Source of the DNA: an uncultured virus (IMG/VR IMGVR_UViG_3300027581_000001)
Lineage: Duplodnaviria > Heunggongvirae > Uroviricota > Caudoviricetes > Kyanoviridae
Strand: one strand, 5' to 3'
Virus record (IMG/VR): IMGVR_UViG_3300027581_000001
Length of the DNA stretch: 64,000 bases
In this document: one piece after another, positions 24,556 to 40,990 of the stretch
How the letters are laid out: every line of letters starts with the position of its first letter
Numbering within the stretch: the stretch's first letter is position 1
Position numbers and translations under genes: made by a program
The notes under the pieces: model-generated
Seen by the model: the letters and a program-made list of their open reading frames with translations, nothing else
Told to the model about the DNA's origin: nothing
The model's database searches: none

Positions 24556-24667
24556 TCCGATCCTCTAGATATGATTACCATAGTACATAGTAAATGATAT
24601 ATGCTGTTCCTTCTTCTTCTTTATGTATCTTTATTTTTTTCTAAATAATTAAAATTGCTTCCCATCA

Positions 24668-24868
24668 ATGTCAAGGGAATGGAATAATCCTACCAGAGAA
24701 CCCTGGAATGGACCTATACACAGAATTCTAAAGGCAGTTGATAATCATACAAAATTATATCTTGAAACTGGTGATAAGTGGCACGAAGAGAAGGCACAGA
24801 TATTAAGAGAATATGTTTCAGAGCTTAAGGACTGGATACACAAAGAAGAAAAGGCAGAAAACTATTAA
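24668..24868 (+). CDS. Conserved hypothetical protein
   Basis: MSREWNNPTREPWN..WHEEKA..LKDWI. Confidence 0.6.
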   Translation: MSREWNNPTREPWNGPIHRILKAVDNHTKLYLETGDKWHEEKAQILREYVSELKDWIHKEEKAENY

Positions 24869-25314
24869 AGTTTGCCTTGCTGTTGATTCATTACCACAAT
24901 CAGTTTTTCGGGATAATCGGGTGCTGTGGCATAACCTTGTTCTTTAAGTTGCTTGGCAGCTTCATTCCTGTTTGGTGCGTTGTTAACACCTTTGTATCCT
25001 TTGTAGTCTTTGTACCACTGGTCAACGAGATAGGAAACACAAGTGAGTAGGTCAGCAAAATCAAGGAACCCATCAGTAATTGTAATCCAATTCCCGTTAA
25101 TAAATTCCTGCGTAGATGTATTAGTTCCTGATCCTTTAAGTCCAAAATAATTATGTTTTCCTGAAACGTGTTTTCCCCAACCTGATTCTACTGCCCACTG
25201 TGCTGCTACTAGTTCTGGGTATTTGGCACCAGAAGATTTAGCCGCTGCCATAACACCATTCCAAGTATTATCTTTAATTATCTCTACTCCTTTACTGGAA
25301 GCAGAGTTTTCTAC
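24865..25314 (-). CDS. Glucosaminidase (GH73) domain, probably made as a -1 frameshift extension of the upstream peptidase
   Basis: AAQWAVESGWG, HNYFGLKG, GYATAPDY motifs; frame open from 25314, first ATG at 25251. Confidence 0.85.
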   Translation of the reverse strand, partial: VENSASSKGVEIIKDNTWNGVMAAAKSSGAKYPELVAAQWAVESGWGKHVSGKHNYFGLKGSGTNTSTQEFINGNWITITDGFLDFADLLTCVSYLVDQWYKDYKGYKGVNNAPNRNEAAKQLKEQGYATAPDYPEKLIVVMNQQQGKL

Positions 25315-25339
25315 TTTTTTACATTAAAGATTCTTCCCC
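25282..25339 (-). promoter_or_regulatory. Programmed -1 ribosomal frameshift signal
   Basis: GGGGAAG, 12 nt, A_AAA_AAG (25320-25314), UAG, hairpin CUCUGCUUCC-AGUAAA-GGAGUAGAG starting 7 nt after the heptamer. Confidence 0.8.
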
Positions 25340-26006
25340 ATCCGTCATTACCATTTGGGCACCAACGAGCAGATAGATCTGATTTCTTATAGATAGCACC
25401 TTTGCCATTATAAACATCACCCGTATAACCATCGTTAAGTGATCCGTAAGGATCATTTATAACATAGTCACCACTCTGTGTCTTACCAATCACTACAACC
25501 ATGTGGCCGCCCGTAGGATAAGACAAAGAACCACGATGTAAGATGCCGATAACAACAGGTTTTTCAGTATTAAGACTTTTATCAAGATCAGCAAAAGAAA
25601 GATTATAACTAAAACTTGACTGAATTCCATAATTTGCAAGAACTTGTGTCTGCACTCCATGATCAGTTGTATCACCGATAGCAAAAACTTTCCGAATATA
25701 TGCATCATCTCCTTGTGCTCCTTTAAGAGTCCCAGGTTTGAAATACTCAAGACACATTGCACAGGCAGAAGAATTACAAGTGCGTTCTGCATTTGTATAG
25801 TTATCTGTCTGTGGATAGTAAGGAACTTCTAAACGAATATCAGATTTCGGTTTTTCAATTTTGGTTCTAAAAATTCTAACCCAGTTTGAGGTATCATCAC
25901 TTAATGGTGAATCAATCAAGTCTAATTCAAGTTGCTCTACTGCCGCAACGTGTTTTGGATTCTTCTCATCATAATATTGAAAGAATTTATGTAAGTCAAT
26001 TTTCAT
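25311..26006 (-). CDS. Peptidase C39-like protein (putative endolysin module)
   Basis: VPYYPQTDN..RTCNSSACAM (catalytic Cys), GGHMVVVIG (His), NDPYG (Asp). Confidence 0.85.
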   Translation of the reverse strand: MKIDLHKFFQYYDEKNPKHVAAVEQLELDLIDSPLSDDTSNWVRIFRTKIEKPKSDIRLEVPYYPQTDNYTNAERTCNSSACAMCLEYFKPGTLKGAQGDDAYIRKVFAIGDTTDHGVQTQVLANYGIQSSFSYNLSFADLDKSLNTEKPVVIGILHRGSLSYPTGGHMVVVIGKTQSGDYVINDPYGSLNDGYTGDVYNGKGAIYKKSDLSARWCPNGNDGWGRIFNVKK

Positions 26007-26094
26007 TTTTTGTCTCCATTAAAGTAACCAATTTTTATAATTATAAGGCAAATGCTCACACAAAAAAATAATAAAATTTCTGTGTAATACATAT

Positions 26095-26259
26095 TTAGTA
26101 TCTGAATTCGTTGATTTTTTCTAGAACTTTATCTAAATATACATTTGCTAATGTTTTTGGGTCTGATGAATACTGGGTTATTTTTTCTTCGTATAAACTT
26201 TGTTTTAATTTTAATACCCAGCACTTAATTTCGTCTTTGGTCAATTGATTTTTTGGCAT
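26095..26259 (-). CDS. Hypothetical protein (54 aa)
   Basis: Hand-translated MPKNQLTKDEIKCWVLKLKQSLYEE...YLDKVLEKINEFRY. Confidence 0.6.
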   Translation of the reverse strand: MPKNQLTKDEIKCWVLKLKQSLYEEKITQYSSDPKTLANVYLDKVLEKINEFRY

Positions 26260-26327
26260 AAAAAGAGGAAAGACTCCATTCTTATATAGAACAGAGTCTT
26301 TTTGTATAGAATAGTTAGGTTAGGATT

Positions 26328-26537
26328 TCAGAATACTCCAGGAAGTATTTGACCAGTTGTCAAATAACTGCCAACGGCAATTACAAATCCCAGCATTGCT
26401 AATCTCCCATTTAGTTTCTCAGCCCTTTGAGCATAAGTTTCTTCTTGATGTTCTGCCATGTCTTTCTCCGTAATGTACATTTTAGGTTCGACAGCAAACA
26501 GATTTTGTCTGTTACCGTCTTCTGTTGTAACTGTCAT
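26328..26537 (-). CDS. hli: High-light-inducible protein
   Basis: AEKLNGRLAMLGF..TGQILPGVF chlorophyll-binding motif. Confidence 0.95.
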   Translation of the reverse strand: MTVTTEDGNRQNLFAVEPKMYITEKDMAEHQEETYAQRAEKLNGRLAMLGFVIAVGSYLTTGQILPGVF

Positions 26538-26544
26538 ACCAAAA

Positions 26545-27429
26545 TTAGAACTTGATACCGACACCAACGGTTCCAGTTACATTGTAACCTTGACCACTGC
26601 TGTAGTTATAAGTAGCACGACCAGACCTTACAGAACCAAAGGTTTCTGCACCAGTTTCGGCAAAAGGAATTTTGGCATCAGCAAATAGAACGATGTTCTT
26701 TGCTACTGATACTTCAGCACCAACTACACCGACACCAGCACTCTGATTACCACCCACCTGACCACCAGCACCAACGTAGAGGTTAGCAGCAGACACTTTA
26801 GTTCCATCGGCAAGAGTCCTACGTGAGAGAGGAATATCCAGAGTAGCAAGACCACCACCGAATACACCACCACTTACATAGTTAGGAGTGGAAGTAAAGG
26901 TTACATAAGGACGAGCAGAGATAGCATACTGATTACCCAAATCAAGTGCCCTTAGACGACCTTGAAGTGTTACACCTGATTCATATACACGATTATCCAA
27001 TGGTGTTACACCTGGATAGTTAGCAGCATTACCAGAGAAGGCAATACCACCATAGTTACCAACACCTAACTGACGACGTTGTGTCGCAGTTACAGCAGCA
27101 ACTTCAAGAGTGGTTACACGCTTATTGGTGGCTCCAATCTGAGCACGTAGAGATGCAGCAAGTTGTGCGTCTGCTTGTGTGTAAAATTGAGTGATGTTAT
27201 CTAGACAATGATTTGTCAGAGCAAATACTTCACTGCGAGTTGCATCAGCAGCAGGCTTCACAGTGCCATTAGGATAACCAACAAGACATCCATAACGAGC
27301 ATTGAGATTTTGGATTGCTCCATATGCCCAGTCAGTTGGTTGTACATCTGTGAAGGATGCAGGAGCAGCAAATGCAGGTGCAACCGCAGTCAGAGCAACA
27401 GTACTAGCAATTAAAGAACGAATAAACAT
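26545..27429 (-). CDS. Secreted SLH-domain outer-membrane beta-barrel protein (cyanobacterial porin-like N-terminus)
   Basis: Signal peptide, FTDVQPTDWAYGAIQNL..YGCLVGYPNGT..TRSE SLH motif, coiled coil, amphipathic beta strands, terminal Phe. Confidence 0.8.
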   Translation of the reverse strand: MFIRSLIASTVALTAVAPAFAAPASFTDVQPTDWAYGAIQNLNARYGCLVGYPNGTVKPAADATRSEVFALTNHCLDNITQFYTQADAQLAASLRAQIGATNKRVTTLEVAAVTATQRRQLGVGNYGGIAFSGNAANYPGVTPLDNRVYESGVTLQGRLRALDLGNQYAISARPYVTFTSTPNYVSGGVFGGGLATLDIPLSRRTLADGTKVSAANLYVGAGGQVGGNQSAGVGVVGAEVSVAKNIVLFADAKIPFAETGAETFGSVRSGRATYNYSSGQGYNVTGTVGVGIKF

Positions 27430-40025: not shown

Positions 40026-40078
40026 TTGACTGGTTTGTTTGCCTATGTATTATAGTGAATTGACTTTGATAAGTCAAG

Positions 40079-40151
40079 TGCTCCTTGTCAGGATCGAACT
40101 GACCTTAGCCGAATTATGAGTTCGGTGCATTCACCAGATTGCTAAAGGAGC
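40079..40151 (-). tRNA. tRNA with CAT anticodon (elongator Met or Ile2)
   Basis: GCTCCTT/AAGGAGC acceptor, CCGAA-CTCATAA-TTCGG, GTCAG-TTCGATC-CTGAC; paired 1:72 so not an initiator. Confidence 0.9.
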
Positions 40152-40179
40152 ATTCGGTATTAGAAAATAACGAATAAAA

Positions 40180-40407
40180 TTATGAACCTTCTTCGTGGTC
40201 GGTGTATATTTTCATTATATCTTTTTCATTAACACCAGCATCCTCAAAAACCTGTATAACTTCTTTGTAAGGAACTATAACGCAATTGCAGTTCTCGCTT
40301 TTGATAAGAAAGGATTCTCCCCTCTTAACCCTATCCAGAAGGACATCAAAATCTGCTTGAAACTCTTTGACAGTAAATGATTCTAATTCGTTAAGGTCTT
40401 TGTCCAT
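40180..40407 (-). CDS. Hypothetical protein (Phd/YefM-like N-terminus)
   Basis: FTVKEFQADFDVLLDRVKRGESFLI. Confidence 0.55.
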   Translation of the reverse strand: MDKDLNELESFTVKEFQADFDVLLDRVKRGESFLIKSENCNCVIVPYKEVIQVFEDAGVNEKDIMKIYTDHEEGS

Positions 40408-40428
40408 TTTTCATAATATGTTGTTTAA

Positions 40429-40513
40429 CGGAAGGGAGAGGATTCGAACCTCTGGATGCTTGCACATCTTCAGTTTTCAAGACTGACGCCATAAACCACT
40501 CGGCCACTCTTCC
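40429..40513 (-). tRNA. tRNA-Ser(TGA)
   Basis: TCAGT-CTTGAAA-ACTGA, long variable arm, AGAGG-TTCGAAT-CCTCT, G73; one A-C acceptor mismatch. Confidence 0.9.
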
Positions 40514-40521
40514 AAGAATCA

Positions 40522-40773
40522 TCAACGAACTTCAAAATCTAAACGACGAACTTTTCTTTGCCTCCTTTCTTCTTGCCACATAATATCTTTAGTTGAAAGA
40601 ACATTTGTTTTTTGTTCTTTCTGTGGTGAGTTTAACATTACAACACGCGACAAATCAACTGAGGATACCTTATCACAACAGATTGTTGCCATATTTGGAC
40701 ATCCACAACTAACTGTTTTTGTTGGATGTCCTATTAATTCTTTATTACAATCTTTGCACCGTATAGAAATCAT
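40522..40773 (-). CDS. Small zinc-finger-like hypothetical protein
   Basis: CKDC..CGCPN; C-terminal RKVRRLDFEVR. Confidence 0.65.
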   Translation of the reverse strand: MISIRCKDCNKELIGHPTKTVSCGCPNMATICCDKVSSVDLSRVVMLNSPQKEQKTNVLSTKDIMWQEERRQRKVRRLDFEVR

Positions 40774-40796
40774 TGTTTTTTTTTGAAATATTTATA

Positions 40797-40867
40797 AGCG
40801 GATACACGGATTTGAACCGAGGATAAAAGTTTGGAAAACTCTTGTGTTGCCACTACACCATATCCGC
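40797..40867 (-). tRNA. tRNA-Gly(TCC)
   Basis: GCGGATA/TATCCGC acceptor, U73, loop TTTCCAA; T-stem has a U-U mismatch. Confidence 0.85.
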
Positions 40868-40915
40868 AGATGAGGATTTACCCAACCTCAGAGTTTCCTC
40901 TAATGGAGAATAAGG

Positions 40916-40990
40916 CGTCTTGGGAGGGATTCGAACCCCCGACCAATTCATTAGAAGTGAATTGCTCTAATCCAACTGAGCTACCAAGAC
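40916..40990 (-). tRNA. tRNA-Arg(TCT)
   Basis: GTCTTGG/CCAAGAC acceptor, ATTCA-CTTCTAA-TGAAT, GGTTCGAATCC. Confidence 0.92.

What the first reader, a model, noticed from the sequence alone, without database searches (positions are those of the whole stretch)
24865..26006. Programmed -1 frameshift would fuse a C39-like peptidase to a glucosaminidase, giving two lysins from one gene
Seen: the peptidase ORF ends GTA AAA AAG TAG, so A_AAA_AAG (25320-25314) is in the correct X_XXY_YYZ phase immediately before the stop. The -1 frame is open from there (VENSASSKGVEIIKDNTWNGV-MAAAKSSGAKYPELVAAQW...) into the GH73 domain. A 9-bp hairpin (CUCUGCUUCC/GGAGUAGAG, 25306-25282) starts 7 nt downstream, and an SD-like GGGGAAG lies 12 nt upstream. 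Established: internal SD, A_AAA_AAG and a 3' stem-loop is the architecture of E. coli dnaX and IS3-family frameshifts. Inference: the phage makes a 231-aa peptidase and an approx. 380-aa peptidase-glucosaminidase fusion at a set ratio. Phage frameshifts I know of are mostly in tail chaperones and capsid/tail proteins; I do not know of one described for a cyanomyovirus lysin.
Basis: partly seen in the sequence, partly recalled or inferred. Interest (0 to 1): 0.9.

Follow-up and report, generated by a model that had tools for sequence, protein, structure and literature searches.

The report
Frameshift-joined cyanophage peptidase-glucosaminidase lysin
A lake-water T4-like cyanophage most likely makes a cell-wall peptidase alone and, when ribosomes slip back one base at the end of that gene, a peptidase-glucosaminidase fusion; related phages keep the same slip signal but carry a different cell-wall enzyme behind it.

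Summary
On the minus strand a 231-aa C39-like peptidase ORF ends GTA AAA AAG TAG. The -1 frame is open from there into a GH73 glucosaminidase, and a 9-bp hairpin starts 7 nt after the heptamer.

Comparison supports a programmed -1 shift.
- 46 of 87 related loci carry an in-phase slippery heptamer at the peptidase stop. In 40 of them the -1 enzyme domain has no ATG before its catalytic motif. S-PM2 and S-CAM7 are among these.
- At least four unrelated stem sequences occupy the same place after the heptamer.
- Eight metagenome loci share the window's GH73 layout. Two have no start codon at all for the GH73 domain, and one is an A7 in-frame fusion that gives exactly the predicted product.
- The window's own ATG lies inside helix 1 of the domain, after a conserved Trp.
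- Contigs from four sequencing runs confirm A6.

The SD-like element is not supported. Transcriptional slippage is not excluded, and no protein has been observed.

This scan found the GH24-lysozyme version eight times before on other DNA. New here is the exact replacement of GH24 by GH73 behind an unchanged frameshift cassette. I found no paper describing this.

The parts
25311..26006 (-). Zero-frame ORF: 231-aa C39-like cysteine peptidase, the short product. It ends GTA AAA AAG TAG.
   Evidence: Pfam PF13529 E 5.7e-14
25333..25339 (-). It forms part of the codons for the conserved GWGR motif.
   Evidence: The wobble base varies among heptamer loci (TGGGGAAGA 20, TGGGGTAGA 17, and other forms), much as in non-heptamer loci. 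There is no independent support for a stimulator role.
25314..25320 (-). Slippery heptamer A_AAA_AAG in X_XXY_YYZ phase: the proposed -1 shift site.
   Evidence: Present in 44 of the 87 loci, the window counted, and in 7 of 8 GH73-type metagenome loci. A6 confirmed by contigs of 4 runs.
25311..25313 (-). Zero-frame TAG stop directly 3' of the heptamer.
   Evidence: The stop directly follows the heptamer in 37 of 44 A_AAA_AAG loci (my count from the listing).
25282..25306 (-). 3' stem-loop: 9 pairs, 7-nt spacer after the heptamer, 7-nt loop. Proposed frameshift stimulator.
   Evidence: -11.3 kcal/mol, z -3.34; synonymous-codon shuffle z -2.4, p 0.01; covariation in relatives
24865..25323 (-). 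-1 frame ORF, stop to stop (152 codons plus stop). Residues 1-14 are a disordered linker that overlaps the hairpin. Residues from about 18 to 152 are the GH73 glucosaminidase domain.
   Evidence: AlphaFold2 mean pLDDT 87.4; residues 1-14 below 50; helix 1 spans residues 21-31.
25249..25251 (-). First ATG of the -1 frame (Met25), a possible independent start that would give a 128-aa product. It lies inside helix 1, four residues after the conserved Trp21.
   Evidence: (Trp column 43 of 55 homologs; Met25 column variable). The codon is ATA in L169 and L170.
24852..25270 (-). Swapped cassette: the GH73 catalytic domain here replaces the GH24 lysozyme domain of the closest relative. The flanks are collinear.
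   Evidence: window against L009 is 93% identical over 27000..25271 and 97% over 24851..24636, with no match between.

Best explanation
Programmed -1 ribosomal frameshifting.

How it would work: ribosomes translating the peptidase ORF reach A_AAA_AAG with lysine tRNAs in the P and A sites. A stem-loop 7 nt downstream, and possibly the stop codon that comes next, hold them there. A fraction re-pair one base back (AAA AAA) and carry on in the -1 frame through a 14-residue flexible linker into a GH73 glucosaminidase.

What it would give: one mRNA yields a 231-aa peptidase (termination at TAG) and a 380-aa peptidase-glucosaminidase. These are two peptidoglycan hydrolases with different bond specificities, probably acting in host lysis.

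Origin: the cassette (heptamer, stop, hairpin, linker) is inherited from relatives in which it joins the same peptidase to a GH24 lysozyme. In this lineage the catalytic domain behind it was exchanged.

Shown: the sequence elements, their conservation, the start-less state of the downstream domain in relatives, and the domain swap.
Inferred: that ribosomes shift, at what rate, and that both products are needed. Extra initiation at the window's own ATG is possible but is not the conserved route.
For: 1. Anatomy is exact.

2. The layout is widespread. Of 87 loci with a complete peptidase ORF (88 loci plus the window; 2 ran off their contig), 46 have an in-phase XXXYYYZ within 5 codons of the stop: 44 A_AAA_AAG, 1 A_AAA_AAA and 1 U_UUU_UUU. 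All 46 have a muralytic ORF of 140 aa or more in the -1 frame. 40 of these have no ATG before the catalytic motif, and 26 have no ATG, GTG or TTG there. S-PM2, in three GenBank records (one read), has a 169-codon start-less Phage_lysozyme ORF (E 1.2e-21) that is annotated only as a 72-aa 'putative lysin'.

3. A second heptamer does the same job. S-CAM7 (3 isolates) and 2 IMG/VR contigs, 5 of 5, keep GTT TTT TTT CCA CAG TAG with a start-less lysozyme in the -1 frame.

4. Hairpins. Four or more unrelated stem sequences sit 2-8 nt after the heptamer. Six representatives give z -3.3 to -6.7. Against synonymous-codon shuffles, all 35 junctions without a start at the peptidase stop have z below 0 (mean -1.61), while the 5 with an ATG or GTG overlapping that stop have a mean of +0.08 (Mann-Whitney p 0.0018). 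In the type-1 helix 86.9% of cells are paired against 39-55% in slid controls, and 3 pairs change on both sides. One example is CUCUAC/GUAGAG becoming CUCCAC/GUGGAG in L175 and L176.

5. Window-type loci. Eight metagenome loci have peptidase, heptamer, hairpin and GH73. L169 and L170 (96-97% identical) have ATA in place of the ATG, and no ATG, GTG or TTG before residue 143.

6. The window's ATG is internal to the domain. Trp21 is conserved in 43 of 55 homologs and the Met25 column is variable. Helix 1 spans residues 21-31 with pLDDT of about 96.

7. The predicted product exists as natural in-frame fusions: L174 (A7, same linker), L124 (C39-GH73), and L012-L015 and L049 (A7, C39-GH24).

8. A6 is real.
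Against: - No protein, ribosome-profiling or reporter data exist.
- The window does have an ATG (25251), so a 128-aa GH73 could be made separately. 6 of 8 window-type loci keep that ATG, and L175 and L176 also have a GTG at codon 13. Gene callers use a start there (P0001, P0002).
- The sequences compared are related, so the counts are not independent events. Within-type covariation is modest (17 of 500 and 6 of 500 shuffles reach the observed values).
- The 3' arm also encodes a conserved Gly-Val/Ile-Glu/Asp motif, so part of its conservation is protein-driven.
- The host's lysine-tRNA set is unknown. According to passages of PMC5009743, a second tRNA-Lys that reads AAG would make A_AAA_AAG less shift-prone.
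- Five loci with the heptamer also have an ATG or GTG overlapping the stop and only weak hairpins. The heptamer alone therefore does not prove shifting.
- The A-run could support transcriptional slippage instead.
Confidence: 0.72

Rival explanations
1. Transcriptional slippage. RNA polymerase adds one A in the A6 run (or one U in the U8 run of S-CAM7). A share of mRNAs then carry the two domains in one frame, and the same fusion protein is made without any ribosomal shift.
For: The shift site is a homopolymer run. A one-base insertion gives exactly the -1 frame product. Genomic A7 variants exist in three lineages (L012-L015, L049, L174), which shows that the run is length-labile. According to passages of PMC5009743, Thermus dnaX uses transcriptional slippage where two lysine tRNAs exist.
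Against: A6 is short for efficient polymerase slippage (recalled, not tested). A conserved, covarying hairpin 5-8 nt downstream and the strict X_XXY_YYZ phase are features of ribosomal shifting and are not needed for polymerase slippage. RNA-library contigs of 2 runs show A6, but contigs drop minority variants, so this is weak evidence.
Confidence: 0.12
2. Two separate genes in this window. The GH73 protein starts at its own ATG (25251), and the heptamer, hairpin and open -1 stretch are relics of the ancestral GH24 cassette that no longer act.
For: An ATG exists and 6 of 8 window-type loci keep it. Pfam scores are the same with or without the extension. Some relatives clearly use their own starts that overlap the stop (ATGA or GTGA: L001, L038, L040, L058, L082, L039, L046).
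Against: L169 and L170 lack this ATG and any other start. The cluster representative P0001 (79 member sequences) has Val at that position. The ATG lies in the middle of helix 1, after the conserved NTW motif. Window-type loci keep the hairpin through compensatory changes. No Shine-Dalgarno sequence is apparent before the ATG (read by eye). The promoter scan lists no minus-strand site between 25968 and 24674 (6 sites found against 6.1 expected).
Confidence: 0.13
3. Artefact: the true sequence is A7 and the gene is a plain in-frame fusion.
For: Homopolymer runs are error-prone. A7 contigs exist.
Against: Contigs of 4 runs from 4 studies show A6 with no indel. 44 of the 87 loci (the window counted) and 7 more metagenome loci have A6. 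S-PM2 matches with the same identity in three GenBank records, one of which I read. S-CAM7 shows its U8 run in 3 separately deposited isolates.
Confidence: 0.02

Closest known systems
E. coli dnaX tau/gamma -1 frameshift cassette, and the 'reversed' dnaX variants of some bacteria (review PMC5009743; passages read)
   Same: The A_AAA_AAG heptamer, a 3' stem-loop and two products that share an N-terminus. In the reversed variants the long product comes from the shift and the zero-frame stop sits directly after the site, as it does here.
   Different: The gene class differs: a phage cell-wall hydrolase, not a polymerase subunit. The 5' SD stimulator is not supported here. No Rfam family matches. 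The downstream domain is interchangeable (GH24 or GH73). Efficiency is unknown.
Tail assembly chaperone G/GT-type frameshifts of tailed phages (PMC5009743 passage; PMC5506516 passages)
   Same: A conserved -1 shift near the end of a phage ORF gives a C-terminally extended second product.
   Different: Those join two chaperone segments. Here an entire second catalytic domain is appended to an enzyme.
Frameshift-joined C39 peptidase-GH24 lysozyme of S-PM2, S-CAM7 and many uncultured cyanomyoviruses. Not found in the papers I searched, but noted eight times earlier in this scan.
   Same: The same peptidase, heptamer, stop, type-1 hairpin and linker. The window is 93% identical to L009 up to the end of the hairpin.
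   Different: The window and 8 metagenome loci carry a GH73 glucosaminidase in place of GH24, and most of them have an internal ATG.
Natural in-frame two-domain lysins: ACG-2014f (405 aa annotated), L012 (C39-GH24), L124 and L174 (C39-GH73), L090 (GH73-C39), S-CREM1 (GH24-C39)
   Same: The same domain pairs in one polypeptide (Pfam). L174 has the same linker as the window's predicted fusion.
   Different: They make one product only and need no recoding.
Endolysin genes that give two products from an internal in-frame start
   Same: One lysin gene yields a long and a short product.
   Different: There the short product is the C-terminal part and arises by initiation. Here the short product is the N-terminal enzyme and the long one arises by a frame change.

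Membership tests
-1 programmed ribosomal frameshift cassette (dnaX/IS3 type) | Slippery heptamer X_XXY_YYZ in the zero-frame phase | tested here: met
   GTA AAA AAG, 25320..25314. The same is seen in 44 of the 87 loci, the window counted.
-1 programmed ribosomal frameshift cassette (dnaX/IS3 type) | The -1 frame is open from the site and encodes a conserved, functional-looking protein that lacks its own conserved start | tested here: met
   152-codon ORF matching PF01832. It is start-less in L169 and L170, and 40 of 46 heptamer loci have no ATG before the catalytic motif. The window itself has an internal ATG.
-1 programmed ribosomal frameshift cassette (dnaX/IS3 type) | 3' RNA structure 5-9 nt downstream, conserved with covariation | tested here: met
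   Spacer of 7 nt, z -3.34. Four or more unrelated stems at the same place. 86.9% of cells paired against 39-55% in slid controls, and 3 pairs changed on both sides. Synonymous-shuffle z is below 0 in 35 of 35 junctions without a start at the peptidase stop.
-1 programmed ribosomal frameshift cassette (dnaX/IS3 type) | 5' internal Shine-Dalgarno stimulator 10-14 nt upstream | tested here: inconclusive
   GGGGAAG lies 12 nt upstream but encodes the conserved GWGR motif. Its wobble base varies freely, as in loci without a heptamer.
-1 programmed ribosomal frameshift cassette (dnaX/IS3 type) | Trans-frame protein actually made | not testable with these tools
   No proteomic or reporter data. RNA-library contigs bridge the junction, but they prove neither transcription nor shifting.
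Curated Rfam frameshift elements | Covariance-model match | tested here: not met
   Over 24800..26100 only two chance snoRNA hits appear, at E 1.7 and 5.3.
Peptidase_C39_2 (PF13529) | Profile match above the gathering score | tested here: met
   53.3 bits against 24, residues 59-187, full profile. Catalytic Cys/His not examined.
GH73 / Glucosaminidase (PF01832) | Profile match above the gathering score, and the conserved Glu of the ESGWG motif | tested here: met
   69.1 bits against 30.2. E46 is invariant in 56 aligned sequences. Calling it the catalytic residue is from recall.
Phage endolysin (acts from within at lysis, with a holin) | Role in lysis; partner holin or spanin; timing | not tested
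   Only annotation labels of relatives ('endolysin', 'lysin'). A virion-associated or other role is not excluded.
Transcriptional slippage site | Heterogeneous run length in RNA but not in DNA | tested here: inconclusive
   Contigs of 2 RNA libraries and 2 DNA runs all show A6, but contigs hide minority forms.

The most novel reading that the evidence does not exclude
The heptamer-stop-hairpin-linker unit is a portable recoding junction in cyanomyovirus lysin genes. Behind it, whole catalytic domains are exchanged by recombination at the hairpin: GH24 for GH73 here, and both forms co-occur in one lake sample. One-base changes in the run (A6 to A7) switch which product is the default, the peptidase or the fusion. 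Phage populations could thereby tune both the chemistry and the ratio of their two cell-wall enzymes.
Probability: 0.35. Interest if true: 0.75.

Novelty: new member of a known kind. Interest (0 to 1): 0.66.

Why it matters
If true, a textbook recoding mechanism operates in a gene class where I found no published record of it, namely phage cell-wall hydrolases (searches).

It would also correct annotations. The 'putative lysin' of S-PM2 and the 'lysin' of S-CAM7 are annotated from internal ATGs beyond the catalytic motif. Metagenome gene callers likewise truncate or misstart the window-type GH73.

The window adds evidence that the cassette outlives the enzyme behind it, which argues that selection acts on making two products. 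This is directly testable in cultured S-PM2 and S-CAM7.

It also bears on how abundant aquatic phages lyse picocyanobacteria, and it offers a natural example of a ratio-setting device for bifunctional lysins.

Tried and rejected
- **SD-like stimulator.** Counting the GWGR codons showed no preference for the SD-like form in heptamer loci. Not supported.
- **Rfam.** No frameshift-element family matched.
- **Assembly error (A7).** Rejected at contig level. Those contigs cannot show transcription, minority A7 RNA or expression level.
- **Window's own assembly.** It is not held. The nearest record, G001, is a 44.9-kb fragment without the locus, so it says nothing.
- **Internal promoter for the GH73 ORF.** The consensus scan gave 6 sites against 6.1 expected, none between the two ORFs on the minus strand. 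The scan does not cover phage late promoters, so this is weak.
- **One consensus structure for all stem types.** This failed because the three main types pair in registers shifted by 3 columns in alignment A1 (i+j = 120, 117, 114 by my reading). I therefore tested type 1 alone and treated the types as separate solutions.
- **ACG-2014f.** This in-frame fusion also has an in-phase GCA AAA AAG and a GGAGGG/CCCUCC stem, and its -1 frame stops after one codon. That would be a dnaX-like reversed layout. However, 8 other in-frame fusions of that clade lack a heptamer, so I treat it as possibly chance.
- **The 224-aa protein after the peptidase in 15 loci.** For example L018; it has no Pfam match.
- **Earlier notes of this scan by place and by sequence.** Nothing was returned.
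- **Host lysine-tRNA repertoire.** It could not be examined. The window's 4 tRNA genes include no tRNA-Lys.
Full report
**1. Observation**

On the minus strand, ORF 26006..25311 encodes a 231-aa protein. It matches Pfam Peptidase_C39_2 at E 5.7e-14. The ORF ends GTA AAA AAG TAG, so AAAAAAG (25320..25314) is in X_XXY_YYZ phase directly before the stop.

The -1 frame is open from 25323 to 24865 (152 codons), with a TAA two codons upstream of the heptamer. The other two frames are closed by several stops. The -1 product matches Pfam Glucosaminidase (GH73) at E 7e-19.

A 9-pair stem (25306..25298 with 25290..25282) starts 7 nt after the heptamer. It folds at -11.3 kcal/mol with z -3.34. GGGGAAG lies 12 nt upstream.

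**2. Is A6 real?**

Twenty of the 22 public runs listed, all freshwater or lake metagenomes, hold the stretch or part of it. I laid four runs from four studies: two RNA libraries and two DNA. In each a contig spans the heptamer with 0 gaps, and no inserted or deleted letter is listed. These are contigs, so minority forms would not show.

**3. Relatives with a GH24 lysozyme**

A blastn search of phage records found 61 records, all Synechococcus phages; every record I opened belongs to Kyanoviridae.
- In S-PM2 the peptidase ORF ends GCA AAA AAG TAA. The -1 frame is a 169-codon ORF matching Pfam Phage_lysozyme at E 1.2e-21. It has no ATG until a position beyond the catalytic motif. GenBank annotates only a 72-aa 'putative lysin' there.
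- IMG/VR gave 387 relatives of the peptidase, of which the best 80 were kept.

Together with 8 phage loci and the window, 87 loci have a complete peptidase ORF; 2 ran off their contig. They divide as follows:
- 46 have an in-phase XXXYYYZ within 5 codons of the stop (44 A_AAA_AAG, 1 A_AAA_AAA, 1 U_UUU_UUU). Each also has a muralytic ORF of 140 aa or more in the -1 frame.
  - In 40 of these there is no ATG before the catalytic motif.
  - In 26 there is no ATG, GTG or TTG before it.
- 7 are in-frame fusions.
- 2 have no heptamer but have their own start overlapping the stop.
- 15 have a different -1 ORF.
- 17 have the peptidase only, or some other layout.

Where the heptamer is lost in a lysozyme locus (L046, GCA GCA AAG), a GTG overlaps the stop. 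The stop follows the heptamer directly in 37 of the 44 A_AAA_AAG loci (my count).

**4. A second heptamer and the in-frame state**

Three S-CAM7 isolates and two IMG/VR contigs (one only 88% identical) all keep GTT TTT TTT CCA CAG TAG. All five have a 175-codon start-less lysozyme ORF in the -1 frame.

Their marine sister clade (ACG-2014f and 8 contigs) has plain in-frame fusions. So the one-polypeptide state exists, and the shifted layout is found with two different slippery sequences.

Five contigs (L012-L015, from four samples, and L049) have A7 in place of A6. They read straight through as ...VKKVENS..., which is the product predicted for the shift. L012 carries both Pfam domains.

**5. 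Hairpins**

RNAfold places a stem 2-8 nt after the heptamer in the start-less loci, but with unrelated sequences:
- Type 1: CUCUACUCC/GGAGUAGAG. This is the type in the window and in S-PM2.
- Type 2: a 14-pair GAGUCAACACCACA/UGUGGUGUUGACUU.
- Type 3: GCCAACUAAC/GUUAGUUGGC. L083 carries the compensatory form CCAACC/GGUUGG.
- S-CAM7: GUAGAACC/GGUUCUAC.

Tests of these stems:
- Six representatives give z -3.3 to -6.7 against dinucleotide shuffles.
- I also used shuffles that keep the -1 frame protein but redraw synonymous codons. Across 40 distinct junctions the mean z is -1.40, and 14 of 40 reach p of 0.05 or less.
- All 35 junctions without a start at the peptidase stop have z below 0 (mean -1.61). 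The 5 with an ATG or GTG overlapping that stop average +0.08 (Mann-Whitney p 0.0018).
- On a type-1 alignment of 16 sequences, 86.9% of cells are paired against 39-55% when the partner is slid. Three pairs change on both sides. 17 of 500 shuffles reach the paired percentage and 6 of 500 reach the count of double changes.

Caveats: the sequences are related, and the 3' arm also encodes a conserved Gly-Val/Ile-Glu/Asp motif.

**6. The window-specific question: is the GH73 domain made by the shift or from its own ATG?**

The window has an ATG at 25251 (Met25 of the -1 ORF). Four lines of evidence bear on it.

(a) A metagenome scan found eight loci with the window's layout, at 89-97% identity over the whole -1 ORF including the part before the ATG.
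- In L169 and L170 the ATG is ATA, and there is no ATG, GTG or TTG before residue 143.
- The cluster representative P0001 (79 member sequences) has Val at that position.
- L174 has A7 and is an in-frame peptidase-GH73 fusion with the same linker.
- L175 and L176 keep the stem through a change on both sides. They also have a GTG at codon 13.

(b) In an alignment with 55 homologs, Trp21 is conserved in 43 of 55 while the Met25 column is variable. Stand-alone homologs mostly begin 3-8 residues before the Trp.

(c) AlphaFold2 with that alignment gives a mean pLDDT of 87.4. Residues 1-14 are disordered, and helix 1 spans residues 21-31, so Met25 is in the middle of the helix.

(d) In-frame C39-GH73 proteins exist (L124, both Pfam domains), as does the reverse order (L090).

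A separate 128-aa product is not excluded, but it is not the conserved route.

**7. Domain swap**

Against its closest GH24-type relative (L009, whose peptidase is 94% identical), the window is collinear at 93% from 27000 to 25271. That stretch runs through the peptidase, heptamer, hairpin and linker. It is collinear again at 97% from 24851 to 24636. The 419 nt in between are unrelated.

The catalytic domain was therefore replaced exactly, and the cassette was kept. In run X6 a contig leaves the window's sequence at 25303 and continues with the L009-type sequence. Both forms seem to live in the same lake.

**8. What is not supported or stays open**

- The SD-like element is simply the GWGR codons with a free wobble base.
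- No Rfam family matches.
- Transcriptional slippage would give the same protein and is not excluded. The hairpin and the phase favour the ribosome.
- According to passages of the review PMC5009743, A_AAA_AAG is especially shift-prone where a single tRNA-Lys reads both codons. Thermus, which has two, uses polymerase slippage. The host tRNA set is unknown here.
- The lysis role rests only on annotation labels.

**9. Known or new?**

Seven full-text searches found no paper describing a frameshift in a cyanophage or other phage lysin gene. The two candidate papers I opened concern a tail-gene frameshift (PMC5506516, passages) and an unrelated C39 ORF (PMC8790148, passages). Papers outside the held library were not searched.

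This scan itself noted the GH24 version eight times on other genomes, one note being marked 'part of it fell'. Look-ups by the window's sequence and by the word glucosaminidase found no note of the GH73 version.

**10. Verdict**

The mechanism is a known kind (a dnaX-like -1 cassette, in the 'reversed' layout) in a new gene class. The window adds a modular twist.

| Reading | Confidence |
|---|---|
| Ribosomal frameshift makes the fusion in this window | about 0.72 |
| Transcriptional slippage | about 0.12 |
| Separate initiation only | about 0.13 |
| Artefact | about 0.02 |

Noticed in passing
L002 (S-PM2, NC_006820) 2185-2694; L008, L274, L275 (S-CAM7) about 1701-2225: GenBank annotates the downstream enzyme as a 72-aa (S-PM2) or 72-90-aa (S-CAM7) 'putative lysin' or 'lysin', starting from internal ATGs beyond the catalytic motif. 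The full 169- and 175-codon Phage_lysozyme ORFs have no start codon.
   Followed up: yes
L007 (ACG-2014f, NC_026927) about 1686-1760: This in-frame 405-aa fusion still has an in-phase GCA AAA AAG followed by a GGAGGG/CCCUCC stem. A -1 shift there would stop after one codon and give the peptidase alone, a dnaX-like polarity. Eight sister contigs lack the heptamer, so it may be chance.
   Followed up: partly
window 25303 (run X6, table 7): A contig in one lake metagenome follows the window up to the hairpin and then continues with the GH24-type sequence of L009. The GH24 and GH73 variants seem to co-occur, with a junction at the hairpin.
   Followed up: partly
window 25870-26003 (peptidase N-terminus); P0003-P0022; L018 2184-2855: The first 45 or so residues of the peptidase ORF (KIDLHKFFQYYDEKNPKHVAAVEQLELDL) resemble the N-terminal module of many GH73 proteins (IKLTDAAKFF..PHQI.AW.WLQ) and of the 224-aa protein that follows the peptidase in 15 loci. 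That protein has no Pfam match. This may be a shared targeting or wall-binding module, seen by eye only.
   Followed up: no
L170 about 195-254: The peptidase C-terminus of L170 is divergent (..LKYRWLEGGKDNTGWGRTFNVKK), yet the heptamer, hairpin and GH73 are 97% like the window's. There is mosaicism on the 5' side of the cassette too.
   Followed up: no
L017 2670-3092: A second stretch, 80% identical to window 25739..25324 (the peptidase core), lies downstream of the lysozyme ORF in this 172-kb contig. It may be a duplicated peptidase segment.
   Followed up: no
window 40078-40990: Four tRNA genes on the minus strand (Met-CAT, Ser-TGA, Gly-TCC, Arg-TCT). None is a tRNA-Lys.
   Followed up: no
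window 26328-26567 and 26545-27429, minus strand: Upstream neighbours look, by eye, like a high-light-inducible protein (..EKLNGRLAMLGFV..) and a 294-aa protein with a signal peptide and an SLH/porin-like N-terminus. Neither was run through any profile search.
   Followed up: no
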